A stretch of 64,000 bases of DNA. It comes from a phage. The position numbers and the translations under genes are program-made. How positions within the stretch are numbered: the stretch's first letter is position 1; each line of letters begins with the position of its first letter. The DNA lies in NCBI GenBank assembly GCA_032986305.1, contig GCA_032986305.1_3672.1; one strand, given 5' to 3'. This document shows positions 39,404 to 55,379 of the stretch, piece by piece. Under the pieces are notes generated by a model that saw only the letters and a list, made by a program, of their open reading frames with translations, was not told the origin of the DNA and ran no database searches.

Positions 39404-40985
39404 CACACAATTAGCTGCCCGGCTAAAGTGCTGGAAGCACCTATAACACATCTTTCAACTAAATTTCCCACCACCACAATCACTTACCTCCCACACATGA
39501 CTGTTTGCTTGTTTAGTGAGCAGTCATGCCTTGACATTCTTGCCTATCCTGATAAAATTAAGTTCTTCTCTTTTCTTTTACCGAGTAATTCGGGTTTTCT
39601 GTTCTCTTCGGTTTGAAGAGGTATGGAGATACACCTGAGTGAACAGGGTGAACAACCGAACCATTGGCTATGGCATTAGCATGGCGAAGCGGACGGGTGA
39701 CGAAAGAGGGGCCGGAGGACACCAGTCACTGCCATATGATATACGGGTGATAACCTGAAGAGTCTGAATAAGTGTTTAAGTACCAGTCAGAGGAAAAGGT
39801 GAATGGTAGCCGAAGGGGGAGGGGGGTTTCTTGTATCTTTAATTTGTATATTATGTATACACTTGTAAACCAATCTCATCTGAATCTGTTTACTACACAA
39901 AGCTGATAGGGACAAATATTACCTATTAAACTTGAATTATTTATAGAAAATACCACAACACAACTTAAGTCTTTGATTTTACACACAAATCCTGCAGATA
40001 TTCACCCTCCATATTTAACATACTTGTAACATATTCCATACTCTACCTACCTGATCAATTTACCCACCAACATCCTCCATATTTTCCCTGTCTGTACCAC
40101 CCCTGCCCCGCCGGGAGTCCCGTCATATCTGGCTTTCCAGCAAATATCACACCCACAAATATCATTGCCTGAAGAGGATTTCATCTCATAATACATGCCT
40201 TGCCTGAAGAGCGCTTCATACACCACGTAAATTTTTTAATTGACCCCCTCCCCGCCGCCGGAGAGGTTGGCTTTTCCCACACAGACCTGAAGAGTCAGCC
40301 AGAAATATCTGAATGGACCCAATTCTGCCCTGTTATGAGCCGTAGCTACTGGAGTGCTGCCAGGCGGACGAAATGGGAATACTTCTCATTCTTATAACAA
40401 TTCTCAAATATCAAGGCAGTGAGTCAAATTAATAGGCGAGGCCGTTCACACAGTGGCACAACATTTGCAACCTATCTTGTGGGGGTGAATGAGAATACCT
40501 ATCATTGTGAGAATAGTTATCATTACGGGCAATTTAACATAATACCCATTATGCGCACCACTGGCGATACATACAGGGATTGATAACATGAGTTACTGTT
40601 TACGCATATAACAATTATATTTCTTACTATTTGTGTGGGATATAGTTAGCAGCCAATAGATTAGATATTGACCTGTAGACTTCCAACCGTCTAGACGTCT
40701 AAACGCCCACACAGCAAGGGTTATACATACACTTCTGAATGTAAACAGGGCCGCAAAAATGCTACCATACCAGTTTGTAAATTTTTCATGCAGCACTTGA
40801 CAAAGAGGAGAAAAACTTGTCTGACACTTTAGACACAATAGTGACATACTATGACACCTTTGACACTTTTGCATACCTGATTGTTTGCATGTCTAATAGT
40901 TTACATGGATAACTGTTCACATACTTATCATTTACATGATTGACTGTTTACACAAATATGATAAGCCATGACATTCGTTTGCATG

Positions 40986-41045
40986 AAAACAATTAACAAG
41001 ATAACAATTGACAAGCTAACAGCCAACAAGCTGACAATTAACAGG
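40986..41045. repeat. four tandem 15-bp iteron-like direct repeats
   Basis: AACAATTAACAAG / ATAACAATTGACAAG / CTAACAGCCAACAAG / CTGACAATTAACAGG. Confidence 0.6.
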
Positions 41046-41056
41046 TTAATAATATA

Positions 41057-41229
41057 TGACATAATATAAAAGCAGGGCAACTATTAGCAGATCTATAGTT
41101 GCCTTGCTTGTTATGTCATGATTAACTAAATACAAGGCAACTATGATCTGATTAATAGTTTGCAGACAAACTATCACGGGGGTGATTGTTACTGCTTTTA
41201 TATTATGTCGCGACTCCGTCGCGACATGT
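41057..41229. repeat. nested inverted repeats (cruciform-capable locus)
   Basis: 19-bp arms TGACATAATATAAAAGCAG and CTGCTTTTATATTATGTCA; inner hairpin GGCAACTAT...ATAGTTGCC; 10-bp palindrome ATGTCGCGAC..GTCGCGACAT. Confidence 0.6.
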
Positions 41230-41854
41230 CATTCGTTTGCATAGTTGCCTTATTGTTACGGATAAAATAATTGTATTGTTAATTATTTCTTATCTTTCTC
41301 TTAGTCATCTAATGATTCCAGTCAGTATAGTAATGTACAGTAAACATTAGACGACTAAATATTTCTCTGATTATAGTAACCTATCGTGACAATTTCGGAC
41401 TGTTTACGAAAAATGTTGACACCTGGGCAGGTTTATGTTATGCAGTTTGTACGAATAATTATTTTATACAGGTATTGACTATTCCGTTATTCTGTGGTTG
41501 GAATAAATACTTTGCAGGCTATAGAATGATGTTCGTACGTGAATTCTGAGATCTGTCGGCTATAGTTACACCCGATTTTTCACGTAGGACACGCTTTTTG
41601 GTTTGTGTAAGTGTATGACTTATAAGGGTTTTTAATTGTTGACAGTATGCTGAAAATGTGCATCAGGTTAAATTTTGTGCAATAGCTGCATTACGTGCGT
41701 TTTTGGAAGGAAAAACGTGTAAAAATGACCCTGCTACCACAAGATGAAAGATTATGCAATAGTTATTTTATATGTATATTTGTACAGTGTGCGGGATTAA
41801 TGGCTCGTCAATTATTCCACTTGCCAGGTAGGGCCGTTTATGGTAGGAAAAGAG

Positions 41855-41883
41855 CAAACAAAAAGAAAGGGGCCTAAGCCCCT
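41855..41883 (-). terminator. intrinsic terminator for leftward gene block
   Basis: AGGGGC-cuaa-GCCCCU hairpin; on minus strand followed by UUCUUUUUGUUUG. Confidence 0.6.
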
Positions 41884-41895
41884 TGATAATGTTTA

Positions 41896-42243
41896 TTATT
41901 TGTTTCTCATCCAGCTTTCCCAAGCTGCCTGATAATCTGCCTCACTGCGGCGGATCTCTTCTTGCTCTTCAAGCCGGATCTCTTCTTCCAGGTACCCCAG
42001 GATATCAGCCTTTTTGGTCTGGCGTAACATCCAATCATCTTTTTTACGAGTAAAGATCTTGTACGCTTTCTCGCAAACCTCCTTTTTACTACCTTTTTGG
42101 ACTTCAATAACTTTGTAGGCCATGTACTGAACTAGTTTGAGCTGATCAAGGCGTTTCATGATGTTTTCCTCTTTATGGGGTTCTGGTTTGGTGGGCCTTT
42201 TGGCCCGTGTCATTATCTTATTACTTACGGCGGCAAAATTCAA
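41896..42243 (-). CDS. hypothetical protein
   Basis: 115 aa, basic/charged. Confidence 0.45.
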   Translation of the reverse strand: MNFAAVSNKIMTRAKRPTKPEPHKEENIMKRLDQLKLVQYMAYKVIEVQKGSKKEVCEKAYKIFTRKKDDWMLRQTKKADILGYLEEEIRLEEQEEIRRSEADYQAAWESWMRNK

Positions 42244-42493
42244 GTGTTTTTAATTGATAATCTTCTTCAGCCTGAAGTACAACCGCTTCAATCATTTCGT
42301 TGGCATTGTTGAAGCCATACCCTTGAGCGAACTCATCCGCGCCACCTTTGTGATCATGTTCTGCGTTCATCGCTTCCACAAAATGGAATTCAAGATTATT
42401 GAGGTAAGGGCTTGATGTTCCGTCCTCTTTTTCGATGAGATCCCAGATAGCATTAAAACGTGATTCAACTTTTTGATTAATCCAGCTTGACAT
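42221..42493 (-). CDS. hypothetical protein
   Basis: 90 aa; own promoter and RBS AGAGGAAA. Confidence 0.45.
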   Translation of the reverse strand: MSSWINQKVESRFNAIWDLIEKEDGTSSPYLNNLEFHFVEAMNAEHDHKGGADEFAQGYGFNNANEMIEAVVLQAEEDYQLKTLEFCRRK

Positions 42494-42547
42494 AATGTTT
42501 TCCTCTCTTCTGGTTGTTGTGTGGGCACTTTTGCCCCTTCAAGATAA

Positions 42548-42576
42548 ATGTTACCTAACCACCTGGCAGATGTCAA
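42548..42576 (-). promoter_or_regulatory. sigma70-like promoter (minus strand)
   Basis: Minus-strand TTGACA - 17 nt - TAACAT, followed by GC hairpin then RBS. Confidence 0.45.
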
Positions 42577-42696
42577 CTGTTTTTATAGTTTTTATATAAC
42601 GGGCACCCCCGGTGATTGTCTCCCCCCCGTCGCCAGGTGCCACCCGTGAGATAAGTATAACAAAAAACAGGACCATTGCAAGCCCTGTTTATTATC

Positions 42697-42831
42697 TTAA
42701 AACCAGTTGCCAACCGTTTCCAATAGATCACTGACTATCAGGACAATACTGATCAGCACATACCTAACCATAAAGGGAAAGATCGCCAACATTGCCGCCA
42801 CGATCCCTATGGTGATAATTATCTTTCTCAT
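42697..42831 (-). CDS. small membrane peptide (44 aa)
   Basis: MRKIIITIGIVAAMLAIFPFMV...; co-oriented, below ORF-track cut-off. Confidence 0.3.
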   Translation of the reverse strand: MRKIIITIGIVAAMLAIFPFMVRYVLISIVLIVSDLLETVGNWF

Positions 42832-42921
42832 GTTTTTGTATTCTCTTTCTGTTGCGTTCAAGGCGGTCACCGCCGCCTGCTTATGCTTTGTTAGTTAATG
42901 GGGCGTACGGTATAGATTAAA

Positions 42922-43146
42922 CTATGCTGTACGCTCAACTATAACAACGGCTTGAGGGATCTCACCTTCCACCACTATCAAGGCTTTTTTCTGCGTGATA
43001 GATATCTTTACCCGCTTCAGCGTGGCGGTAAAATCTTTCATTTCGTCACGTGGTGTTTTAGTGCAATACCAGATCTCAGGCTTACCTATTTGCAAGCCGC
43101 GTAAAAATTCCGTTTTGCCTGTTTTGTTCGTGATCATTTGTTTCAC
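42922..43146 (-). CDS. hypothetical protein
   Basis: 74 aa ORF. Confidence 0.4.
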   Translation of the reverse strand: MKQMITNKTGKTEFLRGLQIGKPEIWYCTKTPRDEMKDFTATLKRVKISITQKKALIVVEGEIPQAVVIVERTA

Positions 43147-43324
43147 CTTACCCGATACCGTGGGGAGATAGGATCATGTTAGCCATAGTTGCAACCACTC
43201 CAACCGATAATGCCATGCCAACTACTACAACCGTGAAAATTTTTTCTAACATGATTCCACCCTCATTAATGGGCGTTGCCTTATTGCCCCGCCCTATGTC
43301 GTACACTTTTCTTCTGATCCTCTG

Positions 43325-43588
43325 TTAGCATACGATAGCGATCACGCCGCCACAAATAAAAGGTAAATCAAAACGGTCTACCTTGCAAGCTATTTTTAAA
43401 CGAAAGGCAACATAAAAGAAAAGTTGCAAACAATCGATCATTGTGTTAGCTGTTGAAACACTGCCAGCATTAAACACCACCCCGCCCACGGCGTTAAACG
43501 TTGCGTTACTCACGAAAGCGAAAAGGCAAGCGATCACGGTGGCGATCATGATGTTGCGTTTTGTCAATCTGTAAATGATGTTTTTCAT
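43325..43588 (-). CDS. small membrane protein
   Basis: 87 aa with hydrophobic segments. Confidence 0.4.
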   Translation of the reverse strand: MKNIIYRLTKRNIMIATVIACLFAFVSNATFNAVGGVVFNAGSVSTANTMIDCLQLFFYVAFRLKIACKVDRFDLPFICGGVIAIVC

Positions 43589-43658
43589 TCTGTCATGTTG
43601 GCGGCATCGCTGCCGCCTTATGTATTATGCTTTGTAAGATGGCTGTTGTCAAACTATT

Positions 43659-43838
43659 TTAACGATAATCATCGTACGCTTTATTAACCTGGCGGATATA
43701 ACATTCAAAAGCCAGATCAATGGATTTATATTCACGGGTATATTCACCATAGGAAACTACATACATTTCTATAGCTTCCTCATATGCGAGGAGAATAGAA
43801 TCCAAGCCTACGATCTCAGTCTTTGCAATAATAGCCAT
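43659..43838 (-). CDS. hypothetical protein (59 aa)
   Basis: MAIIAKTEIVGLD...; N-terminus resembles that of 44203..44487 product. Confidence 0.35.
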   Translation of the reverse strand: MAIIAKTEIVGLDSILLAYEEAIEMYVVSYGEYTREYKSIDLAFECYIRQVNKAYDDYR

Positions 43839-43913
43839 GATTTTTTATCCTCTTTGTGGTTGGTGGGGCTTGTTGCCCCCTTGATTTATATATTACAGTC
43901 TTATATGGTCATG

Positions 43914-44147
43914 TCAACTATTTTCAAAAAATTTTTCTGCTGTGATATTCTTCCCGGTAGGGTTCGCTACTTTCAAAATTTTATCATGCACTGGACGCCC
44001 AAAAGAATAAGCGCCGTACACAGTAAACCAATAATCGCCGTCAGGTTGTACTATTACTGCCGCATATGGTACGCCTTTTTCGTTTTTGCTGACAGAATAG
44101 ATCACGTTGCCATTAATAGCCTCGGCGCGTTTAATTTGTTCCATCAT
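43914..44147 (-). CDS. hypothetical protein
   Basis: 77 aa ORF. Confidence 0.4.
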   Translation of the reverse strand: MMEQIKRAEAINGNVIYSVSKNEKGVPYAAVIVQPDGDYWFTVYGAYSFGRPVHDKILKVANPTGKNITAEKFFENS

Positions 44148-44202
44148 GATGATTTGCCTCTCTTTATTTTCATAATTGGGGGCCTTTTCGGCCCCGCCAG
44201 GT

Positions 44203-44487
44203 TTATTTATTGATAGCGTGCAGCGGGAAAGGTACGCCAGGTTGATAGATAACTTTTACAACCTCATCAGGGCAAAAGAAGTTGCAGAACTCACCGCAAT
44301 AGGCCTCATCCTCTTTCAACTCTTCATCAACATACTCAAAAAAGTAGTCGATGCTTGGATAATCTTGCCCTGGGTTATAGTCAACCATTGTCAGGACTAG
44401 TTCAAGATCGTTGCGTAGGATATGCATACCCGCTTTTAAGTATTTTGCTTCCATTTCTACTACATCGCCAACGGTAACAATAGCCAT
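44203..44487 (-). CDS. hypothetical protein
   Basis: 94 aa acidic, MAIVTVGDVVEM... Confidence 0.4.
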   Translation of the reverse strand: MAIVTVGDVVEMEAKYLKAGMHILRNDLELVLTMVDYNPGQDYPSIDYFFEYVDEELKEDEAYCGEFCNFFCPDEVVKVIYQPGVPFPLHAINK

Positions 44488-44712
44488 GATTTTAACTCCT
44501 ATCTATCCGGTTAATGATTGGGGGCCGCCCCCCTGACACGTCCTATTATCCATATTGTAGGGCTTGATGCAAGTACTTCTTTAAAAATTTTTTAAGCGCC
44601 TTGGGGGCCGCTGTAGCGCCAAAATAATAAAGGCCATGCAACCGCATAGCCTTTATGTGATTATATCGCTGCAGGCCCTGCCATGGGCCTTATTTTGCAT
44701 CATTTGCTGGAA

Positions 44713-45012
44713 TTATTCAGAGAAAACATCGTTCACAATAGCGATCACAATGCCGCCCACCTTGTCACGGTCAACAATGCACAAATCACCATAGATCATG
44801 TGGTAGTCTGGATGATCTTTCACGGAATAGTCAATGAGTGTTTTCTTATCGTCCAGCTTCGTAACTTCCATTCTCATAACGATATGAGAATCATCAAAGG
44901 CATTATTGCGAAAAGTCATAGCCTGACCGCCAGGGCACCCGGTGATCTCCACTTCCACACCGTCTACGATCTGACCATCAAAGAAATAAAGATTATTGGC
45001 GGGTATAAACAT
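44713..45012 (-). CDS. hypothetical protein
   Basis: Start set to downstream ATG because upstream codons AAAGGAG read as the RBS. Confidence 0.4.
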   Translation of the reverse strand: MFIPANNLYFFDGQIVDGVEVEITGCPGGQAMTFRNNAFDDSHIVMRMEVTKLDDKKTLIDYSVKDHPDYHMIYGDLCIVDRDKVGGIVIAIVNDVFSE

Positions 45013-45060
45013 GATCATTACTCCTTTTTGCACTGATTATTTTAACAGGGTTTAAATTTA

Positions 45061-45101
45061 CTTTATTGATGGCCTTGGAGTCAAGGCCATCTAAAAATAA
45101 A
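45061..45101 (-). promoter_or_regulatory. 45-bp repeated promoter/operator element, copy 1
   Basis: Minus strand: AT-rich, GATGGCCTTGACTCCAAGGCCATC palindrome containing TTGACT, then TAAACT; near-identical copies at 48780 and 49371. Confidence 0.5.
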
Positions 45102-45103
45102 TT

Positions 45104-45304
45104 TTACAGGCCTACAATCTCTTTGATTCGTTTTACTGCTGCCTCAGCGCCTTGAGGGTAGAAATTATGATAACCAATCACGCGGGTAATACTGATCGCC
45201 GCTTGGTGGTCCTCGTAGTCGCCTTTGAATATTTCTTGACCATCAACCAGCACAGCAATTTTTTCTTCTTTTTTGAAGTTAATAACGCGGATATTGTTGC
45301 TCAT
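45104..45304 (-). CDS. hypothetical protein
   Basis: 66 aa ORF. Confidence 0.4.
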   Translation of the reverse strand: MSNNIRVINFKKEEKIAVLVDGQEIFKGDYEDHQAAISITRVIGYHNFYPQGAEAAVKRIKEIVGL

Positions 45305-45361
45305 TTTGTTTCTCCTTTGGAACTTTGTCTGTGTGGTGGGGAGTGTCTCCCCGTTGATTGT

Positions 45362-45390
45362 TATTATCCATATTCAGGACCGGATTGCAA
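45362..45390 (-). promoter_or_regulatory. sigma70-like promoter (minus strand)
   Basis: TTGCAA - 17 nt - ATAATA, then hairpin GGGGAGACACTCCCC and RBS. Confidence 0.4.
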
Positions 45391-45589
45391 CACCCCGGAA
45401 GAAAAATTTTTTTGAAAAAAGTTAGGCCCCCAGGGATCGGGGGCCGTTATCAGGTGCGTACAGCGATAAAATACATCCCTACGCCTAACAATATTTCAAG
45501 GGCGATAATCTCCAGCCATACCATAACACGGCGCGCCTTATCGGTGCGGGGCTTATCCTTGGGTGTCATCGTCTCCCCCTTTCCTCCTG

Positions 45590-45811
45590 TTAGTAGTGAC
45601 GTGGTTTACAATGGTCCCCAGGAGTACTATCGCCACGCACATTACGAGAAAAATTATTTCTTCCGTTGTTCGGTCCATTGTTATAAAACCTCTCAAGATC
45701 AGGTCTAAAAGTAAATCTTTCGTTATTGAATCCGTCACGCCAGGCGGCTGGCTTCAAATCTTCACTAAATGGATTAATTAACGTGGCATTATTTAAACGG
45801 TTGGCCCACAT
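45590..45811 (-). CDS. hypothetical Asn-rich protein
   Basis: ATG after RBS GAGGA; 73 aa. Confidence 0.3.
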   Translation of the reverse strand: MWANRLNNATLINPFSEDLKPAAWRDGFNNERFTFRPDLERFYNNGPNNGRNNFSRNVRGDSTPGDHCKPRHY

Positions 45812-46160
45812 ATTTTCTATTCCTCTCAAATAGGCGATCCGCCTCAGTTAAACATATCTCATGGGCGTGATCTCTGGTTTTAGCTTCATCGAAAACCTGT
45901 TGTGCAAGGCTGCAACGTAGGGAGACTGGAAGATCACTATAATAGGCGTTGACAAACGTTTGAGCGTCGTACAGGTCTGAAAATACTTTACCCTTTCTAT
46001 TATTTCCCTTGTCAACAATTGCAAGGATAACCAATACAATAGTTGCAACCACCCCCAGGAAAATAGATATAATAAACCATAAAAAGGCGGATCTCCCCAT
46101 CTTGCCAGCGATCCAGGCGTTAAACAAGGCAACCAATATAGCCAAAATAATAAATTCCAT
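45789..46160 (-). CDS. membrane protein (two TM helices)
   Basis: MEFIILAILVALFNAWIAG...FLWFIISIFLGVVATIVLVILAIV. Confidence 0.45.
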   Translation of the reverse strand: MEFIILAILVALFNAWIAGKMGRSAFLWFIISIFLGVVATIVLVILAIVDKGNNRKGKVFSDLYDAQTFVNAYYSDLPVSLRCSLAQQVFDEAKTRDHAHEICLTEADRLFERNRKYVGQPFK

Positions 46161-46224
46161 TCTATGTACCTCTTTTACAGTTCTGATTAACAATAAGGCG
46201 GCAAATATGCCGCCTGTTACCTGA

Positions 46225-46605
46225 TTAAAAATTATCGCCGTAAATCTTTCCGCTTTCTACCCATACCACCACGCGAGGCATACTATCCCACACGTCTTGT
46301 TTTAGATTGAGCGCGTGCAATTCTTCGGTGGTGCTCATACCGGGCACGGGCTGATTGTATACTGCAAAACGACCGCCTGCATAATCATAGGCCAGGGTTA
46401 AATCACACTGGATCATCTTTTTGATCATGGCATTAAGCATGGCGTTAGCCGCATATTGATCACGTTTTAAAGGCAACTCTTTGATTAGTTTGCGATAGTT
46501 TTCGATATGGTCGCACACTGTTTCACGAGGAAGATCTTTCATATCCTCGCGAAAGGTAACCAGGTTAAACATAACGGTGTCAATGGCCTTGGTAGTGTTT
46601 TTCAT
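46225..46605 (-). CDS. hypothetical protein
   Basis: Start at ATG after RBS AGAGGA. Confidence 0.4.
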   Translation of the reverse strand: MKNTTKAIDTVMFNLVTFREDMKDLPRETVCDHIENYRKLIKELPLKRDQYAANAMLNAMIKKMIQCDLTLAYDYAGGRFAVYNQPVPGMSTTEELHALNLKQDVWDSMPRVVVWVESGKIYGDNF

Positions 46606-46694
46606 AATGTTATCCTCTCTGTTTTGTGTTGGGCAAGTCATCTCGCCCCTTGAGTTTTAATATAGCAGGTTTTTAGATTATTGCAACACTTTAT

Positions 46695-47318
46695 TTATGA
46701 AAAACTCATCTCCCCATATTCATCCACATCAAACCGCCAATCATTGGCTTCAATAAGGCCGATCAGGTTTTCGGTAGTAAACTGTTCAAGATAGGCCCCC
46801 TCCAGGTCTACGTAAACCTTGCGGGATAGCTCCCGTACCGTCTCGGTGATCAGCTCTTCCAGCTCTTCAACTTTATCCTCTTGCTTGGTGGTCAGGTCTA
46901 GCCAATTAGTATCGATGCACCCTCCTATTGTGTTTTCGTGGTGATAATGGCTAAACGGGATACGTTCAACACTAGCTGATAACTCGCCATCGTGCATTGT
47001 GCCGAACAAGTGACGAATTGATCGGAACTTGGTCAGGGCCTTGACTTTACGCAAGAATTTTTCTAAATCCACGTTTTCAGCACTGATTGACGCGCCATCG
47101 CCTTGACACCAAAAGCCGGACCAACGTACTTCGGTATCTTCAAGGCCGTACTCTGGAAAGACATATTCTTTATAGTGTTCAATTACGCTTTCTGCAAAAA
47201 AATTATCCCCGCTGTGTTCTTCTCTTTCGCGTACCATTTCAATGGCTTTTTCTTTTTGTTCGTCGGTCAGCACATCGAAAGATAAATTGTAACCTGTGGT
47301 AATGTTAACGGTGGTCAT
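46695..47318 (-). CDS. hypothetical acidic protein
   Basis: 207 aa, strongly acidic; consensus promoter upstream. Confidence 0.5.
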   Translation of the reverse strand: MTTVNITTGYNLSFDVLTDEQKEKAIEMVREREEHSGDNFFAESVIEHYKEYVFPEYGLEDTEVRWSGFWCQGDGASISAENVDLEKFLRKVKALTKFRSIRHLFGTMHDGELSASVERIPFSHYHHENTIGGCIDTNWLDLTTKQEDKVEELEELITETVRELSRKVYVDLEGAYLEQFTTENLIGLIEANDWRFDVDEYGEMSFS

Positions 47319-47346
47319 GATATTTTCTCCTGTTTTCTTTGTTAGT

Positions 47347-47365
47347 GGCGGGAAGTTTTCCCGCC
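47347..47365 (-). promoter_or_regulatory. 5' UTR stem-loop
   Basis: GGCGGGAA-gtt-TTCCCGCC between promoter and RBS of 46695..47318. Confidence 0.45.
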
Positions 47366-47375
47366 TGTGTGTTTA

Positions 47376-47403
47376 ATTATACTTATTGAGATTTACTTGT
47401 CAA
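47376..47403 (-). promoter_or_regulatory. sigma70 consensus promoter (minus strand)
   Basis: TTGACA - 16 nt - TATAAT; -35 abuts stop of upstream gene. Confidence 0.6.
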
Positions 47404-47653
47404 CACTATTTTTTAAATTATTGTGGCGCAAAATGTTTAAAATCTCTTCAACGTCATCAACACGGCGGCAATTTTTAAACGCTACCAATTGCCCCATGAT
47501 TTTAATCACTGGGCGGCCTTGCCAGTGCCCTTGGAGAAAGCGCGCCTTGACTTTATCGGTGGAACTATCACGCCACCAAATAGCCTTGTTGTTGCAGTAG
47601 TAAAAATTATTCAGGATAACATCAACTTTATCAAAATTTTTTAATTTACGCAT
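47393..47653 (-). CDS. hypothetical protein
   Basis: 86 aa ORF. Confidence 0.4.
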   Translation of the reverse strand: MRKLKNFDKVDVILNNFYYCNNKAIWWRDSSTDKVKARFLQGHWQGRPVIKIMGQLVAFKNCRRVDDVEEILNILRHNNLKNSVDK

Positions 47654-47871
47654 GGCGTTTACTCCTTCCTCTCTTTGATGTGGTTAGTATAGCTAACCTG
47701 TTGACGATGTCAATGATATTTTTAACGCCATAAAACGGCCCTGGGCGATGTTTTCAGGTTAAAGGGGGCGATTGCATAGGTGGGGGCCTTTTTGGCGCTT
47801 ACAGGGCCAACCAGGGGCGCTATTCGTATGATAGAAATAAAAAGCCCCGCACAATGGCGGGGCGTTGGTTG

Positions 47872-48069
47872 TTATTTGTCTTTATGGCGGTATCGTTCTG
47901 CCTGTCGTTCACGTTCCAAAAGTAGGCCGGGCAATTTACGATCATAATGATTACGCCAGATCTTCCCAAACCTTTTTGGCTTATTCAGTTTATTGTTACG
48001 CTGGCGGCGTTCTGGCAGCTCTTCGGAATCATGAGGGCGCTTTACAATTTTCTCGAAATTAATTTTCAT
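47872..48069 (-). CDS. hypothetical basic protein
   Basis: 65 aa, Arg/Lys-rich. Confidence 0.35.
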   Translation of the reverse strand: MKINFEKIVKRPHDSEELPERRQRNNKLNKPKRFGKIWRNHYDRKLPGLLLERERQAERYRHKDK

Positions 48070-48413
48070 ATATTCCCCCCCTTGCTAACTTCAATATTGG
48101 CCTGAATAGCTCGGATACGGCGCTTTATAACTTCCTGATCTGTGTGGTCGTATCCCCAAAAGTCTACAATTTTTGCGCCCCCCGCCTCCAGGCGGTATAG
48201 TGTTTCCTGCATTTTGTAAGCCGGGATCGGGCGCGGTGTTACTTGGTCACCTTCTTTATTTTTATACTTTATAATATAATCTTCGTTATCGTTGAATGCC
48301 CAAAATGGATATTCTGCAAGGGCGGTACTTCCTCTTTCCTTTTTATCCTGGATCTTATTTACAATTAAAGCCGTAGCAATAGCGCCAATAATAAAACTAG
48401 CCCCGCTAATCAT
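48066..48413 (-). CDS. hypothetical protein with N-terminal TM helix
   Basis: MISGASFIIGAIATALIV... Confidence 0.4.
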   Translation of the reverse strand: MISGASFIIGAIATALIVNKIQDKKERGSTALAEYPFWAFNDNEDYIIKYKNKEGDQVTPRPIPAYKMQETLYRLEAGGAKIVDFWGYDHTDQEVIKRRIRAIQANIEVSKGGNI

Positions 48414-48489
48414 GTGTACTTTCTCCTTTCATGGTGTTAATAAATTATCTTTATAGATGGCCCTGCAACCAGGACCACCGAAAAAATAA

Positions 48490-48735
48490 CTATTTCACAA
48501 TGCCTACAAAACAGATCCCGCCTTCACCTATGTAAGCAATATCGGTAACTTTATAATTTGTCAAGATCTGTTTATTTAGTTCATTAATAAAATCGGTCAT
48601 TGCGTTGGTGTAGTTGTCTTCCATATCTAAGGCATAATCCCAGGCGTAAACCTTTTTACGTCCGAAGCCTTTTACCATGATACGGGCGCTTTTGGTGTTG
48701 GTGGGCGCATAATATTTTGTGATTAGTGCTGCCAT
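48490..48735 (-). CDS. hypothetical protein
   Basis: 81 aa; RBS GAGGAG; preceded by 45-bp element copy 2. Confidence 0.4.
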   Translation of the reverse strand: MAALITKYYAPTNTKSARIMVKGFGRKKVYAWDYALDMEDNYTNAMTDFINELNKQILTNYKVTDIAYIGEGGICFVGIVK

Positions 48736-48779
48736 GGTTTTAACTCCTCATTAGTTCAGTGTTAACAGTGTAAAGTTTA

Positions 48780-48820
48780 CTTTATTGATGGCCCTGGAGT
48801 CAAGGCCATCTAAAAATAAA
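48780..48820 (-). promoter_or_regulatory. 45-bp repeated promoter/operator element, copy 2
   Basis: Near-identical to 45061..45101. Confidence 0.5.
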
Positions 48821-48822
48821 TT

Positions 48823-49134
48823 TTACTCGTTTTCTTCCAGCTCTGTCTGCAATTCCTGGTATTCTTCATCGTCCTCAATATCCAGGCTGTCGATGTAGTC
48901 GCTAAATCCGCAGCGGTAAGCGATAGGATCTAACTCCTTGAGGATACGCGACGGAAGAAAAGAAATGTTTCCGATCATAATTTCGCCGTAGATCTCGTCT
49001 AGCCATTCGTCATAGTTTTCGTCGTACTTGTCCTCGTCGATTTCAAAGTTATCGATCTTGTTCTCAAGGTCTGCGATCTGTTTTTTCAGCGCGGCGATCT
49101 GCATAGCTTTTTCTGCGGCGGTCATAGTAGTCAT
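48823..49134 (-). CDS. hypothetical acidic protein
   Basis: 103 aa, coiled-coil-like N-terminus. Confidence 0.4.
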   Translation of the reverse strand: MTTMTAAEKAMQIAALKKQIADLENKIDNFEIDEDKYDENYDEWLDEIYGEIMIGNISFLPSRILKELDPIAYRCGFSDYIDSLDIEDDEEYQELQTELEENE

Positions 49135-49370
49135 GGTGTTTTCTCCTTTTGTGTGTTCTGGGAAGTTTTCCCGTTTACGTGTTTAAGTATACCGATTTGG
49201 GTTAGCTTGTCAATTAAAAATTTAAGAAAAATTTTGCAAAACTGTTGGCGCTACTCATTAACATTTGCGCCAGGATGTAACCGACAACGCAAACGATAAT
49301 AGTTACCTTTGTGTATTGGCGTGTAGTGCTCATCTTAAAGCCCCCTTTTCGCTTAGTTGAGACTAGTTTA

Positions 49371-49411
49371 CTTTATTGATGGCCCTGGAGTCAAGGCCAT
49401 CTAAAAATAAA
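49371..49411 (-). promoter_or_regulatory. 45-bp repeated promoter/operator element, copy 3
   Basis: Near-identical to 45061..45101; upstream of a 39-aa membrane ORF. Confidence 0.5.
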
Positions 49412-49412
49412 C

Positions 49413-49817
49413 TTAATAAGTTTTCAGTACTTTACCGTCCAACCTGTCAAGCTGGATCTCAATAGCTGCAGAAAACCTATTGTACACCACGTCGCCCATA
49501 GAATCCAACCAATCTATGACGTTATATACCTGCTCTTTATTCTTACAGGTCCGGATCCGTTTCATGATGTAAGCCGGATCAATATTGGTACTCTCGTTGG
49601 TGTTCCCCTGTACCTGGTTTGCCGTATTAGTTACATCTTTAATGGCCTTTACCACCACCTGGAATGGCTTTAAGGTGCCTTTTGCGTTCATCTCACGCGC
49701 TTTTGCGGCGCGGTTGTTATATGTTACACAACGGCGGCAAATATTGATCAAATGCATGTCAATAATTTTTTCATCGTTTGCCAACTCGTTCATGATGCGG
49801 CGTACGTTCTTATTCAT
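49413..49817 (-). CDS. hypothetical protein
   Basis: 134 aa ORF. Confidence 0.4.
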   Translation of the reverse strand: MNKNVRRIMNELANDEKIIDMHLINICRRCVTYNNRAAKAREMNAKGTLKPFQVVVKAIKDVTNTANQVQGNTNESTNIDPAYIMKRIRTCKNKEQVYNVIDWLDSMGDVVYNRFSAAIEIQLDRLDGKVLKTY

Positions 49818-49899
49818 GGTCTTTTTCCTTTATGTTGGCGGGAAACATTCCCGCCTTTTGTGCCCAGTTTACTTGAATTTTGCAGCGTGTCAACAATTT

Positions 49900-50298
49900 T
49901 TATTCATGGGCGCATGTTACAATGTGCTTTTTATAGCCCAGGCGGTCAGCAAGTGCCGACAAAAACTCTTCTTCGTAGATCCAGCCGTCGGCAGTGATCC
50001 CCATAGTATTTAATGCGCTCTCAAGTGCTGCGTTGGCCTTATCATAACCGTGACCGCTCGCCTTGCCGCCAGTATAGCCGTACTTATTGTTCTTGTTGTC
50101 GTGTATCCAAAAAACGCAGTAGTAAGTGTTCCCGCTGGCGGCGGCATAGTACCGGATCTCCGCTACTTCGTGCAAATTATTATCATCGTCCAGGCCAACC
50201 AGATTATAAGCCTTGTAAAATCCACGATCACGGCGGCAATTTTTAACATCAGAAAAAGAGAAGTCGGCATTGTCAAAATTAAAGGTTGTGGTTTTCAT
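49900..50298 (-). CDS. hypothetical protein
   Basis: 132 aa ORF. Confidence 0.4.
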   Translation of the reverse strand: MKTTTFNFDNADFSFSDVKNCRRDRGFYKAYNLVGLDDDNNLHEVAEIRYYAAASGNTYYCVFWIHDNKNNKYGYTGGKASGHGYDKANAALESALNTMGITADGWIYEEEFLSALADRLGYKKHIVTCAHE

Positions 50299-50362
50299 GA
50301 TTTTATCCTCTCAGTGTCTTTTTTGATTTCAGTATATTTTGTGTCAGGCCATATGTCAATAC

Positions 50363-50560
50363 TTATTTTTTATTAAACCAGTGGTTGATCTGGCCTTTTG
50401 TCAGGGCGCAACGATTAAGTTGGTGCCGTGTATAGCTCTGACCGCGACGGAATTTATAAAGGCCTTGCCCGTTGTTGATGGTTACATCCACCCGGCAAAC
50501 CATTTGATCGGTGACCACCTGGCGAGTGTTGCGACGTACTTTGATTCCGTAGGCGTTCAT
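50363..50560 (-). CDS. hypothetical protein
   Basis: 65 aa ORF. Confidence 0.35.
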   Translation of the reverse strand: MNAYGIKVRRNTRQVVTDQMVCRVDVTINNGQGLYKFRRGQSYTRHQLNRCALTKGQINHWFNKK

Positions 50561-50645
50561 GATTTTTTATCCTCTCTGTTAATTGGTGTGGTGTTGTTCA
50601 CCTTGCGAGGATAAGAATAACAATAACTGTACGAGCTGTCAACCA

Positions 50646-50822
50646 TCAGTTAAAATTATTTTTTGGGTAGAATTCTCCAGCCGCCGCCCCTGCCAGGTTA
50701 ACCATCATTTTTTCGTACTCTTCTTTATGTTCCAACGCTCCCGCCATAGCCTTTTCAACCAGGGCGATAGCCTCAGCGTCATTAATAGCTACATTTTCCA
50801 GGGGGATCATGTTACCTTTCAT
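50646..50822 (-). CDS. hypothetical protein (58 aa)
   Basis: RBS GGAGGT then ATG; MKGNMIPLENVAIND... Confidence 0.35.
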   Translation of the reverse strand: MKGNMIPLENVAINDAEAIALVEKAMAGALEHKEEYEKMMVNLAGAAAGEFYPKNNFN

Positions 50823-50869
50823 TTTTGTACCTCCTCTTCAATTGTTACCTATCCTATAGCATAGGCCCA

Positions 50870-51838
50870 CCAGGTTTGCAAGCCTTCATTCTCTCCTACC
50901 TGGTCAGTTAGGTCCTACCAGGCTGGCCCCGCCAGGTTGCAGCGGTTAGCGCATCAGGTTAGAAAATTTTTTTGAAAAGTGTTGACAGCGGCCCAGCCAG
51001 GTGGCACAATATACCTATCGAAAGGACGGCAGGCACCGGTGACGGGGGAGACAACCACCGGGGATGGGCGCTGCATAAAATGAGAACGGTTATCATTATC
51101 CTTTAAAAATTTATGCAAAAATCCTTGCTTTCTTTGTCCTGTGTGATACTATAATAACAAGCCGGGGCAACAGGGGCCGGGAGACAATCACCGGGCCTGC
51201 CCGTTATTCTGCAAACGAGAATGATTATCATTCAAAATTCTAAATGAGAACTCCTCGCATTTAATAAATTTAATTAGCATGCTAATTACCCTCCGTAACA
51301 ATTTCCTATAAAACAGTATCCCATAAAATATTCCCATACAGAAATTTTAAAAATCCATTTCTGAAAACGAAAAATCGATTTCGTCCCCAAAAATTTCAGG
51401 TCGAGATCCGGAACGATTTCTAGAAAATCCGATTTAGAAAACGAAAAACAGATCGAGTACTGAGAAATTTATCGAGAAAAATTTTCAGAAAATTCAATCT
51501 TTGAAACGAAAAACAGATCGAGTACCTGGAAAGCTGCACTGCAACTTCAAGATAGTGGTTAGATTATTACCATAGAAGGTCAAGGGTAAGTGGAGGAAGT
51601 TCTAGTAGAAGGATGTGAGCATGTGTGGGAAATCTGTAATGGTGGCCTGAAATATGGTGCAAACGATAGGATGAGTGATTCAGCTTGTCGCGCCTACTCT
51701 GAAAAAATCCATTTTAGTTTTCGATCCATTTTCTGATTTTCTAAGGATTTTAAAATATCCGGCCCGGTGAAATATCAAAAGGAGGAAATCCATTTTAGAA
51801 ATCCCCCTTATACTTGATATGCCAGGAATTTTCAAGTA
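50870..51838. other. non-coding repeat-rich region
   Basis: No ORF of 60 aa or more; two paralogous promoter-hairpin units at about 50980-51240; direct repeats AAATCCATTT (x5) and GAAAACGAAAAACAGATCGAGTAC (x2). Confidence 0.5.
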
Positions 51839-52168
51839 TCAGCTGTCTTTGTTTTTAGGTTTGTACATGCGCAGAGGTATGGTCTTTGTAACATTCCATT
51901 TCCTCAACCCTTCCCAGCTCCAGTTGTGGGCGTGATACCCGGTTATGCATGCACTGCTGGCGTGATCATAAGCATAAGAGAACGCTATGTGCACCAGGTG
52001 GGGCCAGTCCTTCCACGGCTGTGGACCGTAAGCCTTTCTCCAACACCGACACAAACTAATTGTCTCAAGAATAGGGAGAATAACAATTCCATATACCACC
52101 ACCAGAATGGTCAGTGCAATGATTGTCAGGAACACATACCCTGCAGTTGAAATGATGATCTCTGTCAT
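51839..52168 (-). CDS. membrane protein
   Basis: N-terminal long hydrophobic helix. Confidence 0.4.
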   Translation of the reverse strand: MTEIIISTAGYVFLTIIALTILVVVYGIVILPILETISLCRCWRKAYGPQPWKDWPHLVHIAFSYAYDHASSACITGYHAHNWSWEGLRKWNVTKTIPLRMYKPKNKDS

Positions 52169-52368
52169 TTGTCGTCCCCTTTCTTACGAATATAGATGTG
52201 AGAGCCTGCCTGTATATAAATTTCTCGACCATCCTCTGCAAAGATATGAAATACACGATCACCTTCGTACTCGATACGAGATATCTTCATAATGGTCTTT
52301 CCACCTGGGGTACGGATCTCGTCCCCCACAGCGATGTTCCATGCAGATTTAAGCTTAAACATCTGCAC
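52165..52368 (-). CDS. hypothetical protein
   Basis: 67 aa, ATGA overlap. Confidence 0.4.
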   Translation of the reverse strand: MQMFKLKSAWNIAVGDEIRTPGGKTIMKISRIEYEGDRVFHIFAEDGREIYIQAGSHIYIRKKGDDK

Positions 52369-52600
52369 CCTCCTTTGGGAACTTGAACTCTGGCATAGCC
52401 ATATACGCTACAACAGGGTTGTGATCAAAGTAGAACTGACCGTTAATTATCCCGGTTTTGTCCACATAGTTACCAGATCCTGCAAGAACAACCTCACAAG
52501 CTCCGAAATCTACATTGCCATCCTCATCAGCCATGGCTACGATATACTTTCCAAGAGGCATGTTTTTAACGCCGTCTACAAATGTCCACCCTTTGCTCAT
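52355..52600 (-). CDS. hypothetical protein
   Basis: 81 aa ORF. Confidence 0.4.
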   Translation of the reverse strand: MSKGWTFVDGVKNMPLGKYIVAMADEDGNVDFGACEVVLAGSGNYVDKTGIINGQFYFDHNPVVAYMAMPEFKFPKEGADV

Positions 52601-52620
52601 ACTTTATCTCCTGCGCTTTC

Positions 52621-52953
52621 TTAAGGTAACCAGTAAACAATCTCGCCTTTCAGCTTCATGTCGTTTCCAACATAAATTTCCCAGCCATCCATCTTAGCAA
52701 CTGTAGGCCCAAAGTCATCCGCACCCCTTACCTCTTTCCAGGCTCCGTAGTCAGGTTGCCAGATATAGAATCCACCTTCTTTGTCCCATGCTCCGTACAC
52801 TACGTTTAACAGGTTTCCCATTGCAACAATGGTGGGCCGTGGGAATAATACATCTACAGATGCGCCACAATTTCGAGTATCTTTTAAGTTGCAATCCCAA
52901 AAGATGTCTGCCAGTGTGGCGGCAATAGCTTTACGTCTTTCCAATGTTACCAT
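52621..52953 (-). CDS. hypothetical protein
   Basis: 110 aa ORF. Confidence 0.4.
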   Translation of the reverse strand: MVTLERRKAIAATLADIFWDCNLKDTRNCGASVDVLFPRPTIVAMGNLLNVVYGAWDKEGGFYIWQPDYGAWKEVRGADDFGPTVAKMDGWEIYVGNDMKLKGEIVYWLP

Positions 52954-52963
52954 GGCACGATAC

Positions 52964-53155
52964 TCACTTGTTGTTAATAAGTTCTAAAACTTTCTGTCTT
53001 ACTTTGTCAAGGTCTGTTGATTCAAAAACTGTGCGATATCCCCAACTTTGCCCATAAGAGTGACTGCAATCCCCGTAGCACCATTGCTCAATTTGATAGT
53101 ATTCAAGGAATGGGTGCTGCCTGACTATGATACCGTCTCGATTAAAAATTACCAT
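52964..53155 (-). CDS. hypothetical protein
   Basis: 63 aa ORF. Confidence 0.35.
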   Translation of the reverse strand: MVIFNRDGIIVRQHPFLEYYQIEQWCYGDCSHSYGQSWGYRTVFESTDLDKVRQKVLELINNK

Positions 53156-53218
53156 AATATATCCCTCTCTGCTAGTTTATGTTTGTACTATACCCCGCAG
53201 TTTTCAGATGTCAACCTC

Positions 53219-53413
53219 TTACAGATTGCTCCAGTACAATCGGCATTTACATTTTGGGCAATGAGGTTCTTTTATGTAATAACCGTCAGTCTTTGGAACA
53301 CTTTTTGGTGCAGTTTTAAGATTGTACCTGGTAAAACATCGGAAGCAGGTTACCTCTCCCACCTGTTGATCGTTGATCCACTCACCAGAGTAAAGCTCTT
53401 TCTTGTTTCTCAT
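53219..53413 (-). CDS. small Cys-rich (zinc-ribbon-like) protein
   Basis: CFRC...CPKCKC; start set at internal ATG with RBS GGGAGAG. Confidence 0.35.
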   Translation of the reverse strand: MRNKKELYSGEWINDQQVGEVTCFRCFTRYNLKTAPKSVPKTDGYYIKEPHCPKCKCRLYWSNL

Positions 53414-53664
53414 AATTCTCTCCCAAATCCTCTGCAATCTTATACCAAAATCTCCAGCCAGAAAGCACACGGGAACACCTTGAGGATTGAATCTTTACTT
53501 GGCTCGGAAGTTCTTTTTCCGTATGGTAGGTAGAAATACCCCCCTGCAGATTCGAATATAGCTCCTTCGGTTGTATCTACCACAGCAAGAATTAAGATTT
53601 TAGTCTCCACAGTGCTCTCCTCTCTTAGTTGTTGTGGAAACTATATCACCTCAGAAGATGGTCG

Positions 53665-54129: not shown

Positions 54130-54538
54130 TCAGCTCCTCTTCCGCAATTTCAAAAAACTCATCCCAACCTTGTGGCATATTTGAGTTGCCGAAGTGGCTT
54201 TCATAGTAAAGGTTCTCACCACTTGGGAGATAGAAATCTGTTACCTCGTAGAATCCACAATCGTCGCACTCGCCTTCTTCAAACTTGGCCTCAACCTTAA
54301 TACCTAGGAAGGTGAAAAGTTTATGGATATCTTCAGTTTCGAACTCCCAGCAGATATTGTTTTCCGCATCGGTGTAGAACTGGATCAGCAGACCATTATC
54401 CAGTTTACCAAAATATTCTGTGAAGTAACTACCTTCCCAGAAATCTTTATGACAAATAATATCCATGCGCTTGCCCATGATAAAGGTGTGGGCGTTTTGG
54501 GCATCGTCACGAATCAGTTTTGGCATTTCATAGATCAT
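54113..54538 (-). CDS. hypothetical protein
   Basis: 141 aa; 3' end overlaps open frame of macrodomain gene. Confidence 0.4.
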   Translation of the reverse strand: MIYEMPKLIRDDAQNAHTFIMGKRMDIICHKDFWEGSYFTEYFGKLDNGLLIQFYTDAENNICWEFETEDIHKLFTFLGIKVEAKFEEGECDDCGFYEVTDFYLPSGENLYYESHFGNSNMPQGWDEFFEIAEEELTYRDY

Positions 54539-55317: not shown

Positions 55318-55328
55318 TTTTCAGATCT

Positions 55329-55364: not shown

Positions 55365-55379
55365 TATGTTAACTAATTG

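What the first reader, a model, noticed from the sequence alone, without database searches (positions are those of the whole stretch)
46695..47318. Strongly acidic 207-aa protein behind the best consensus promoter in the window
High Asp/Glu content with a perfect TTGACA-16-TATAAT promoter and 5' UTR hairpin suggests an abundantly expressed early protein. Acidic early proteins are often DNA mimics (anti-restriction). This is speculative; no family was recognised.
Basis: inference. Interest (0 to 1): 0.4.

Follow-up and report, generated by a model that had tools for sequence, protein, structure and literature searches.

The report
Acidic early phage protein, DUF8835 family
This is a real, conserved early gene of an rV5-like E. 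coli phage whose acidic protein belongs to a very large uncharacterised family (DUF8835) that phages, conjugative plasmids and E. coli genomic islands carry beside anti-restriction genes; that makes it a reasonable untested anti-defence candidate, but nothing shows it is a DNA mimic.

Summary
There is a 207-aa ORF at 46695..47318 on the minus strand (net charge -24, pI 4.5). A perfect TTGACA-16-TATAAT promoter and a stable 5'-UTR hairpin precede it. The promoter is one of three perfect ones in the window, and 11 other ORFs have a lower pI.

The window is a Vequintavirus (rV5-like coliphage), and the gene is rV5 ORF185 (phrog_5162, unknown function).

A profile search places it in a large family: 6,352 cluster representatives, all about 200 aa and all acidic, with an invariant SGFW[SC]QGDGA loop and a YxH motif. 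The confident AlphaFold model matches no solved structure, including ArdA, Ocr and KlcA.

[quoted passage not shown] They sit in establishment modules:
- DUF932 - antirestriction - RadC - DUF987 - X - YeeU/CbtA in six of six sampled E. coli islands.
- Next to SSB, ParB and a Strawberry-notch helicase on alphaproteobacterial plasmids.
- Inside the terminal repeats of two jumbo phages.

Published BASEL data show Vequintaviruses escape type I but not type II restriction. A phi92-like phage without a detectable homologue escapes too.

Verdict: a plausible establishment or anti-defence protein with an unknown target. The DNA-mimic idea is neither supported nor refuted.

The parts
46695..47318 (-). 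CDS of the 207-aa acidic protein (stop codon included); orthologue of rV5 ORF185 and Murica gp170; phrog_5162; related to the DUF8835-labelled family
47376..47403 (-). sigma-70-type promoter TTGACA-16-TATAAT (12/12). The -35 overlaps the end of the upstream 86-aa gene.
47404..47420 (-). A/T-rich block just upstream of the -35 (AAAAATAGT core), conserved between Vequintavirus and Avunavirus; possibly an UP-like element (inference)
47347..47365 (-). 5'-UTR hairpin GGCGGGAAAACUUCCCGCC: 8-bp stem, -14.6 kcal/mol, z -4.7. No U-tract follows on the minus strand, so it is not a canonical terminator for the upstream gene. Probably a 5' mRNA-stabilising stem-loop (inference).
47327..47331 (-). Shine-Dalgarno AGGAG, 8 nt upstream of the ATG, left unpaired in the predicted fold
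47085..47123 (-). codons for residues 66-78, WSGFWCQGDGASI. This is the family's signature loop between strands beta2 and beta3. G68, F69, Q72, G75 and A76 are invariant; G73 and D74 are at 99%.
46938..46946 (-). codons for Y125-H-H127. This is the second signature motif (Y 95%, H 97% conserved), in the loop between strands beta4 and beta5.

Best explanation
The gene encodes a soluble, acidic, single-domain alpha/beta protein of a very large family (phrog_5162; bacterial relatives labelled DUF8835). Many kinds of mobile DNA carry this family in the part of the genome that enters or is expressed first.

Shown:
- It is a conserved, purifying-selected gene of rV5-like phages, with its own near-consensus host-RNA-polymerase promoter and a 5' hairpin.
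- Relatives in E. coli islands, conjugative plasmids and jumbo-phage terminal repeats lie in 'establishment' modules next to anti-restriction (KlcA/ArdB-type), SSB, ParB, RadC, DUF932 and Strawberry-notch helicase genes.
- The family has a fold not seen in solved structures, uniformly negative charge, and two invariant loops (SGFW[SC]QGDGA and YxH).

Inferred:
- It is made at once after DNA entry.
- It helps the incoming DNA survive or take over, by binding and neutralising a host protein through the conserved loop site.
- The acidic surface may aid mimicry or competition with nucleic acid.
- The target is unknown. Among known defence classes, type I restriction is the one that published phenotypes leave open.
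For: Identity and conservation:
- 113 of 120 matching phage records carry at least 80% of the 2-kb query around the gene, at 80-99% nt identity.
- It matches phrog_5162 at 1.2e-86.
- Substitutions show a third-position bias.

Family size: 6,352 representatives at E<=1e-3 and 4,148 at E<=1e-10. Members are 190-220 aa standalone proteins.

Link to bacterial members: a profile of the phage clade alone hits them at 1.8e-16 to 5.5e-10.

Acidity is a family trait: 264 of 264 members are net negative (mean -17.6, median pI 4.64), with 33 acid-rich against 11 basic-rich alignment columns.

Context:
- Six of six sampled E. coli loci read DUF932 - antirestriction - RadC/JAB - DUF987 - X - YeeU - CbtA.
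- A full-length copy is present in 1,943 of 5,426 complete E. coli genomes.
- Among 80 genome loci, same-strand neighbours are a Strawberry-notch helicase (46), DUF932 (37), SSB (19), RadC (18) and ParB_N (15).
- Homologues lie inside the 22-kb and 19.7-kb direct terminal repeats of phages CcrBL9 and fENko-Kae01.

Published background: leading regions are enriched in anti-defence genes, and a third of the top families there are uncharacterised (PMC11541004).

Dispensability: truncated or split copies occur in some Vequintaviruses, which suggests an accessory gene (P0022-P0025; H87-H90).
Against: - All functional evidence is guilt by association. No experiment, no characterised homologue and no paper was found.
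- The 80 genome loci are dominated by one alphaproteobacterial element type (67 fall in one cluster), so the counts are not independent.
- Establishment modules also hold replication, partition and toxin-antitoxin genes, so co-location does not prove anti-defence.
- Maffei et al. describe Vequintavirinae as 'exceptionally susceptible' to restriction-modification systems overall (PMC8594841). The gene therefore gives no protection against the tested type II and III systems.
- Early timing is inferred from the promoter type only. The rV5 paper finds sigma-70-like promoters across the whole genome.
- The 98%-conserved family residue E16 is Val in the Vequintavirus clade.
Confidence: 0.45

Rival explanations
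1. One reading: a DNA-mimic anti-restriction protein (like Ocr or ArdA). Its acidic surface would imitate B-form DNA and titrate type I restriction-modification enzymes.
For: - Uniform negative charge across the family.
- Neighbourhood with KlcA/ArdB-type anti-restriction genes.
- No known anti-type-I family (Ocr, ArdA, KlcA) was detected among 72 small ORFs of the window between 27.9 and 64 kb.
- BASEL raw data. CarlMeissner (Bas48) and DrSchubert (Bas50) were checked and carry the gene. They and Bas49, Bas51 and Bas52 have 10-17 EcoKI sites.
  - They plate at EOP 0.06-1.2 on EcoKI and 0.12-1.25 on EcoCFT_I.
  - They plate at about 1e-3 to 1e-4 on EcoRI and below 1e-13 on EcoRV.
- By contrast, Bas01 with only 3 EcoKI sites plates at about 1e-4 on EcoKI.
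- A type-I-specific escape is the expected phenotype of a DNA mimic.
Against: - No sequence or fold similarity to ArdA, Ocr, KlcA or any solved DNA mimic.
- Charge density is about half that of Ocr or ArdA (the figures for those two are from my own recollection, not a tool result).
- The invariant Gly/Gln/Asp and YxH loops suggest a specific site.
- The phi92-like phage PaulScherrer (Bas60, 12 EcoKI sites) plates at EOP 0.72 on EcoKI. Yet it shows no homologue in positions 10,001-150,000 of its 150,425-bp genome. Type I escape in this group therefore need not depend on this gene.
- The window holds more acidic small proteins that fit equally well, for example 48823..49134.
- Co-occurrence with KlcA could equally mean a different, complementary target.
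Confidence: 0.12
2. An enzyme or small-molecule-binding protein. The invariant S67, Q72, D74, Y125, H127, R162 and E173 would form a catalytic or metal- or ligand-binding pocket. An example would be degrading or sequestering a signalling nucleotide, or modifying a host factor.
For: - The pattern of strictly conserved polar residues in two neighbouring hairpin loops is more typical of active or binding sites than of surface mimics.
- The family keeps one compact domain of constant size.
- Circularly permuted fusions keep both halves.
Against: - No match to any Pfam or NCBIfam enzyme family and no fold match.
- Position 71 in the loop varies (S, C or N), so it is not a nucleophile.
- The conserved glycines may simply be needed for a tight turn.
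Confidence: 0.15
3. A toxin-antitoxin component (antitoxin or regulator), as the RefSeq and UniProt names of the bacterial homologues say.
For: [quoted passage not shown]
- The gene lies directly upstream of cbeA-cbtA in E. coli, of a Phd-type antitoxin on one plasmid, and near a RES toxin in 12 loci.
Against: - The adjacent toxin-antitoxin pairs are already complete with their own antitoxins (YeeU/CbeA, Phd).
- It has no homology to Phd, RelB or YeeU families.
- No toxin-like neighbour is seen in the phage or in the other phage loci.
- About 740 E. coli genomes keep only a 113-bp remnant of the gene.
- RefSeq now also uses the neutral label DUF8835.
- The name most likely arose by adjacency.
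Confidence: 0.05
4. A general host-takeover or DNA-transaction accessory protein with no role against defence systems. Examples would be modulating host replication, recombination or SSB-coated DNA, or the SOS response.
For: - Neighbours include SSB, ParB, RadC, toprim and helicase genes, which deal with DNA handling after entry.
- Phage neighbours are all of unknown function.
- Vequintaviruses are not protected against most tested defences.
Against: - There is no DNA-binding signature; the protein is strongly acidic.
- Truncated copies in some phages and remnants in E. coli argue against a core function.
Confidence: 0.2

Closest known systems
[quoted passage not shown] WP_000094919.1, WP_000086753.1, WP_114293706.1)
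   Same: - Homologous over the full length. The profile of the phage clade hits them at 1.8e-16 to 5.5e-10, and the family profile is reciprocal.
- Same size (about 205-215 aa), same SGFW[SC]QGDGA, YxH and C-terminal N-x-Y-x-F motifs, and the same acidity.
- Carried by mobile DNA.
   Different: - Only 21-30% identical to the phage protein in BLASTP local alignments.
- The phage clade has Val instead of the 98%-conserved Glu16.
- The bacterial genes lie in multi-gene establishment operons, whereas the phage gene is a single-gene unit with its own promoter.
- Function is unknown in all of them.
ArdA (Pfam PF07275) and Ocr / T7 gp0.3 (PF08684) DNA-mimic anti-restriction proteins
   Same: - Acidic, small, cytoplasmic, and encoded where the incoming DNA is first expressed.
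- Vequintaviruses show a type-I-specific escape from restriction, which is the phenotype these proteins give.
   Different: - No sequence match (at E<=1) and no fold match to any PDB chain.
- Lower charge density (my recollection of Ocr and ArdA figures, not tested here).
- An alpha/beta fold with a four-stranded sheet and invariant loops.
- From my own knowledge, not tested here: Ocr is a helical dimer and ArdA is built from elongated domains.
KlcA / ArdB anti-restriction proteins (Pfam PF03230)
   Same: Co-resident in the same island operon about 1.3 kb upstream in all six sampled E. coli loci, and on the same plasmid about 7 kb upstream (Shinella). The mechanism of KlcA/ArdB is, to my knowledge, also unresolved.
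   Different: Not homologous (no Pfam hit). Different size. The phage window carries no KlcA/ArdB homologue among the 72 small ORFs scanned.

Membership tests
phrog_5162 / DUF8835-labelled family | Full-length profile match to the family | tested here: met
   - phrog_5162: E 1.2e-86, residues 4-205 against profile positions 2-200 of 201.
- The family profile retrieves 6,352 representatives, nearly all aligned end to end.
- A phage-clade profile hits bacterial members at 1.8e-16 to 5.5e-10.
phrog_5162 / DUF8835-labelled family | Signature motifs: SGFW[SC]QGDGA loop, YxH, R-x6-Y-x2-LE helix, C-terminal N-x-[YW]-x-F | tested here: met
   The query has S67 G68 F69 W70 C71 Q72 G73 D74 G75 A76, Y125, H127, R162, Y169, L172, E173, N192, W194 and F196. 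The exception is the 98%-conserved E16, which is Val in the Vequintavirus clade.
phrog_5162 / DUF8835-labelled family | Direct hit to the curated DUF8835 model itself | not testable with these tools
   The Pfam and NCBIfam copies at hand returned no such model for any of 99 members. The DUF8835 label was seen only as a RefSeq product name on the E. coli homologue WP_000086753.1.
ArdA (PF07275) | Sequence match to the ArdA profile | tested here: not met
   No hit at E<=1 for the query, and none among 99 family members at E<=0.01.
ArdA / Ocr DNA mimics | Fold resembling a solved DNA mimic | tested here: not met
ArdA / Ocr DNA mimics | Surface array of carboxylates that matches the DNA phosphate spacing | not testable with these tools
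Bulk charge: net -24 over 207 aa.
ArdA / Ocr DNA mimics | Alleviates type I restriction in vivo | not testable with these tools
   Only indirect evidence exists. Vequintaviruses that carry the gene are barely restricted by EcoKI or EcoCFT_I, but so is a phi92-like phage in which no homologue was detected.
Ocr (PF08684) | Sequence match to the Ocr profile | tested here: not met
   It is also absent from the 72 small ORFs of the window.
KlcA/ArdB (PF03230) | Sequence match to the Antirestrict profile | tested here: not met
Type II/IV antitoxins (Phd/RelB, YeeU/CbeA) | Homology to an antitoxin family | tested here: not met
   No Pfam or NCBIfam antitoxin family was hit by the query or by 99 members.
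Type II/IV antitoxins (Phd/RelB, YeeU/CbeA) | Paired with a cognate toxin gene that lacks another antitoxin | tested here: not met
   In E. coli the downstream pair YeeU-CbtA is already complete. In the phage, the ten nearest genes show no toxin family.
Known anti-phage defence systems (PADLOC) | Match to any defence-system component model | tested here: not met
   No PADLOC hit for the query or for four diverse relatives.

The most novel reading that the evidence does not exclude
DUF8835 would be a new-fold family of anti-defence proteins shared by lytic phages, jumbo phages, conjugative plasmids and integrative islands, and present in about a third of complete E. coli genomes. It would act through its invariant SGFWSQGDGA/YxH site on a host nuclease or sensor of incoming DNA. 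In Vequintaviruses it could be the unattributed factor behind their selective escape from type I restriction. The current 'antitoxin' annotation of thousands of database entries would then be wrong.
Probability: 0.25. Interest if true: 0.7.

Novelty: new member of a known kind. Interest (0 to 1): 0.4.

Why it matters
If DUF8835 proteins are anti-defence factors, one assay would assign a function to a family with thousands of members in phages, plasmids and genomic islands. It would also correct a widespread 'antitoxin' annotation.

It could explain why rV5-like phages, which are being considered for therapy, ignore type I restriction while remaining highly sensitive to type II and III systems.

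The experiment is easy. BASEL phages Bas48 and Bas50 carry the gene, and the EcoKI and EcoCFT_I test strains already exist.

If the result is negative, this is an ordinary early accessory gene of unknown role.

Tried and rejected
- Pfam, NCBIfam and PADLOC scans of the query and of 99 relatives gave no consistent family.
- PDB sequence searches with the single sequence and with the profile gave only spurious hits to designed repeat proteins.
- Domain fusions and circularly permuted long homologues (P0155-P0157, P0167, P0207, P0252) had no Pfam domain that could hint at function.
- Rfam gave nothing for the 5' UTR or the surrounding 9 kb.
- Literature searches for phrog_5162, DUF8835, and DUF932/RadC/KlcA/YeeT combinations found no functional study.
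- I tried to use BASEL restriction phenotypes as a presence/absence test. Vequintaviruses escape type I restriction. The DUF8835-negative phi92-like phage Bas60 does too, so the correlation does not discriminate.
- I rejected the 'antitoxin' label as a name given by adjacency.
- I rejected 'terminator of the upstream gene' for the hairpin, because no U-tract follows it on the minus strand.
- Model coordinates were not retrievable, so no electrostatic or DNA-mimic shape analysis was possible.

Full report
**What is there.** The finding's coordinates hold an ORF on the minus strand (46695..47318, 207 aa).
- An AGGAG Shine-Dalgarno lies 8 nt upstream of the ATG.
- The protein has 44 acidic and 20 basic residues (net -24, pI 4.53).
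- That is acidic but not exceptional here. It ranks 12th of 80 ORFs of at least 100 aa by pI, and a 103-aa neighbour (48823..49134) has 29% D+E.
- Upstream lies TTGACA-16-TATAAT at 47403..47376, a 12/12 match.
- Perfect hexamer pairs occur three times in the window against 0.13 expected, so this is one of three. The one at 58319 has the canonical 17-nt spacer.
- Between the -10 and the RBS lies a hairpin, GGCGGGAAAACUUCCCGCC (47365..47347, -14.6 kcal/mol, z -4.7).
- No Rfam family matches.

**Where it comes from.** A 2-kb piece around the gene matches 120 phage records at 80-99% identity. Essentially all are Vequintavirus (rV5-like E. coli myoviruses).
- The gene is Murica gp170 and rV5 ORF185. 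It sits in a long run of small hypothetical genes, each with its own RBS and many with their own promoter and terminator.
- The rV5 paper places it in the proposed transcription unit 10-1-238-164 and notes sigma-70-like promoters across the genome (PMC3606486).
- Orthologue comparisons show third-position and synonymous bias, so it is a real coding gene.
- Some Vequintaviruses carry truncated copies (P0022-P0025; H87-H90). This suggests it is dispensable.

**Promoter and leader in relatives.** The -35 and an A-rich block upstream of it are invariant from Vequintavirus to Avunavirus (proteins about 60% identical).
- The -10 is TATAAT only in this phage and Murica, TATACT in rV5 and navn, and TACTAT in Av-05.
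- The Vequintavirus hairpin is invariant. In Avunavirus a different short GC hairpin takes its place.
- The same layout (promoter, GC hairpin about 10 nt later, CA-rich unpaired leader, RBS) recurs at the minus-strand promoters at 49893, 49213, 43917, 43652 and 42576.
- The hairpin is therefore a house style of these transcripts. It is probably a 5' stabiliser (inference), not a feature special to this gene.

**The family.**
- Pfam, NCBIfam and PADLOC give nothing. PHROGs gives phrog_5162, function unknown (1.2e-86).
- A single-sequence search finds mainly Vequintavirus proteins plus three distant hits.
- A profile of these finds 961 proteins in the word-indexed search. The exhaustive search of 1.84 billion representatives finds 6,352, of which 4,148 have E<=1e-10.
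- Members are almost all standalone proteins of 190-220 aa.
- After redundancy filtering of 285 sequences to 213:
  - G58, G68, F69, Q72, G75 and A76 are invariant.
  - G73, D74, Y169, L172, F196 and G202 are at 99%, and E16 and L17 at 98%.
  - H127 is at 97%, Y125 and N192 at 95%, and S67 at 90%.
- There are 33 acid-rich columns against 11 basic-rich ones.
- All 264 full-length members examined carry a net negative charge (mean -17.6, range -31 to -6, median pI 4.64). Acidity is a family trait, not a quirk of this phage.
- A few long proteins (614-775 aa) contain the domain in circularly permuted order plus unknown regions.

**Structure.** AlphaFold2 with a 99-sequence alignment gives a confident model (pLDDT 91.5, pTM 0.82).
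- The order of elements is beta1-alpha1-alpha2-beta2-[signature loop]-beta3-alpha3-alpha4-beta4-[YxH loop]-beta5-long alpha5-alpha6-beta6-beta7.
- Foldseek against all PDB chains gives nothing better than E 0.54.
- BFVD returns only uncharacterised phage proteins.
- AFDB was not available.
- It is therefore not a structural relative of ArdA, Ocr, KlcA or any other solved anti-defence protein.

**Bacterial and plasmid relatives.** tblastn with a distant member finds 103 plasmids (41 conjugative, 9 mobilizable) and 177 phage records.
- A profile built only from the phage clade hits these proteins at 1.8e-16 to 5.5e-10.
- In E. coli a full-length copy is present in 1,943 of 5,426 complete genomes, almost always on the chromosome.
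- In all six loci inspected the order is DUF932 - antirestriction protein - RadC/JAB - DUF987 (YeeT) - this gene - YeeU/CbeA - CbtA.
- On alphaproteobacterial plasmids it lies among SSB, DUF932, RadC, DUF6878, ParB, an antirestriction gene, a 1,460-aa methyltransferase/Strawberry-notch helicase and a toprim/YAcAr protein.
- In 80 genome loci the same-strand neighbours are the Strawberry-notch helicase (46 loci), DUF932 (37), DUF6878 (31), SSB (19), RadC (18), ParB_N (15) and RES toxin (12). Caveat: 67 of the 80 loci belong to one related element type.
- This gene set is typical of the establishment or leading region of conjugative elements (my knowledge). That region is enriched in anti-defence genes, and a third of its largest families are uncharacterised (PMC11541004).

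**Other phages.**
- Homologues lie among small unknown genes in metagenomic phage contigs, once near DUF932.
- In Caulobacter phage CcrBL9 the gene lies inside the 22-kb direct terminal repeat. In Klebsiella jumbo phage fENko-Kae01 it lies 1.8 kb from the genome end, inside the 19.7-kb terminal repeat.
- By analogy with T5 pre-early genes (my knowledge), these positions suggest first-entering, first-expressed DNA.

**The 'antitoxin' name.**
- The neighbouring toxin-antitoxin pairs (YeeU-CbtA; Phd plus its partner) are complete without this protein.
- The protein matches no antitoxin family.
- Phage copies have no toxin neighbour.
- Many E. coli islands keep only a 113-bp remnant.
- The name is best explained by adjacency.

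**Is it an anti-restriction DNA mimic?** I found no direct support and no refutation.

For:
- The conserved acidity and the company it keeps.
- No Ocr, ArdA or KlcA homologue appears among 72 small ORFs of the window.
- My re-reading of the BASEL raw data (PMC8594841 S1 Data and S5 Table). Vequintaviruses Bas48-Bas52 have 10-17 EcoKI and 4-5 EcoCFT_I sites.
  - They plate at EOP 0.06-1.2 on EcoKI and 0.12-1.25 on EcoCFT_I.
  - They plate at about 1e-3 to 1e-4 on EcoRI and below 1e-13 on EcoRV.
  - A siphovirus with 3 EcoKI sites plates at about 1e-4 on EcoKI.
- The paper itself calls the group 'exceptionally susceptible' to restriction-modification systems and attributes weak type I effects to rare sites. 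The numbers nevertheless point to a type-I-specific escape.

Against:
- The phi92-like phage PaulScherrer (12 EcoKI sites, EOP 0.72) shows no DUF8835 homologue in 93% of its genome.
- There are dozens of other unknown early genes, several of them more acidic.
- The fold is unrelated to known mimics.
- The invariant loops look like a specific site.

**Conclusion.**
- The most likely reading (about 0.45) is an early-expressed establishment or anti-defence protein of the DUF8835 family that neutralises a host factor by direct binding. The target is unknown.
- The DNA-mimic anti-type-I version is a minority sub-case (about 0.12).
- An enzymatic or ligand-binding role (0.15), a non-defence takeover role (0.2) and a toxin-antitoxin role (0.05) remain open.
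- The gene and its family are already catalogued, so the novelty lies only in a possible function.

Noticed in passing
window 42548..49893, minus strand (promoters at 49893, 49213, 47403, 43917, 43652, 42576; probably also 46686): Several early genes share one leader design. A sigma-70-like promoter is followed about 10 nt after the -10 by a GC-rich hairpin (-5.5 to -15.4 kcal/mol), then a CA-rich unpaired stretch and the RBS. Two of the hairpins are near-identical (GGCGGGAAAACTTCCCGCC and GGCGGGAATGTTTCCCGCC).
   Followed up: partly
window 48823..49134 (-): A 103-aa ORF with 29% Asp+Glu and pI 4.05 (phrog_9294, unknown function). It is much more Ocr-like in size and charge density than the finding's protein, and it has its own TTGACA-16-TATACT promoter at 49213.
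   Followed up: partly
published data on close relatives (BASEL phages Bas48-Bas52; PMC8594841 S1 Data): Vequintaviruses with 10-17 EcoKI sites plate at EOP 0.06-1.2 on type I systems but at 1e-3 to below 1e-13 on type II systems. The paper does not single out this type-I-specific escape. phi92-like phages show it too.
   Followed up: partly
window 47872..48069 (-): A 65-aa protein that matches Pfam Phage_1_1 (T7 gp1.1-like, E 2.6e-11), two genes upstream of the finding.
   Followed up: no
window 27975..63952 (one of 72 small ORFs, not located): One ORF hits Ribosomal_S30AE (a hibernation-factor-like domain) at E 4e-13. That would be an unusual phage-encoded ribosome modulator.
   Followed up: no
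GenBank records MG065635-MG065690 (hits H2-H5, H9, H10, H16, H17): Seventeen records named 'Campylobacter phage', with host Campylobacter jejuni, are mostly 95-97% identical to E. coli Vequintaviruses over this region. They are probably mislabelled or contaminant genomes.
   Followed up: no
proteins P0156, P0167, P0207 (614-775 aa): Long homologues carry the DUF8835 domain circularly permuted (C-terminal half first). Large regions with no Pfam match follow it.
   Followed up: partly
E. coli genomes, e.g. H113-H116; L010 9001..9645: About 740 complete E. coli genomes, including O157:H7 strains, keep only the last 113 bp or so of the island homologue. One RefSeq record spells the product 'DUF8835 domain-containing pootine'.
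   Followed up: no
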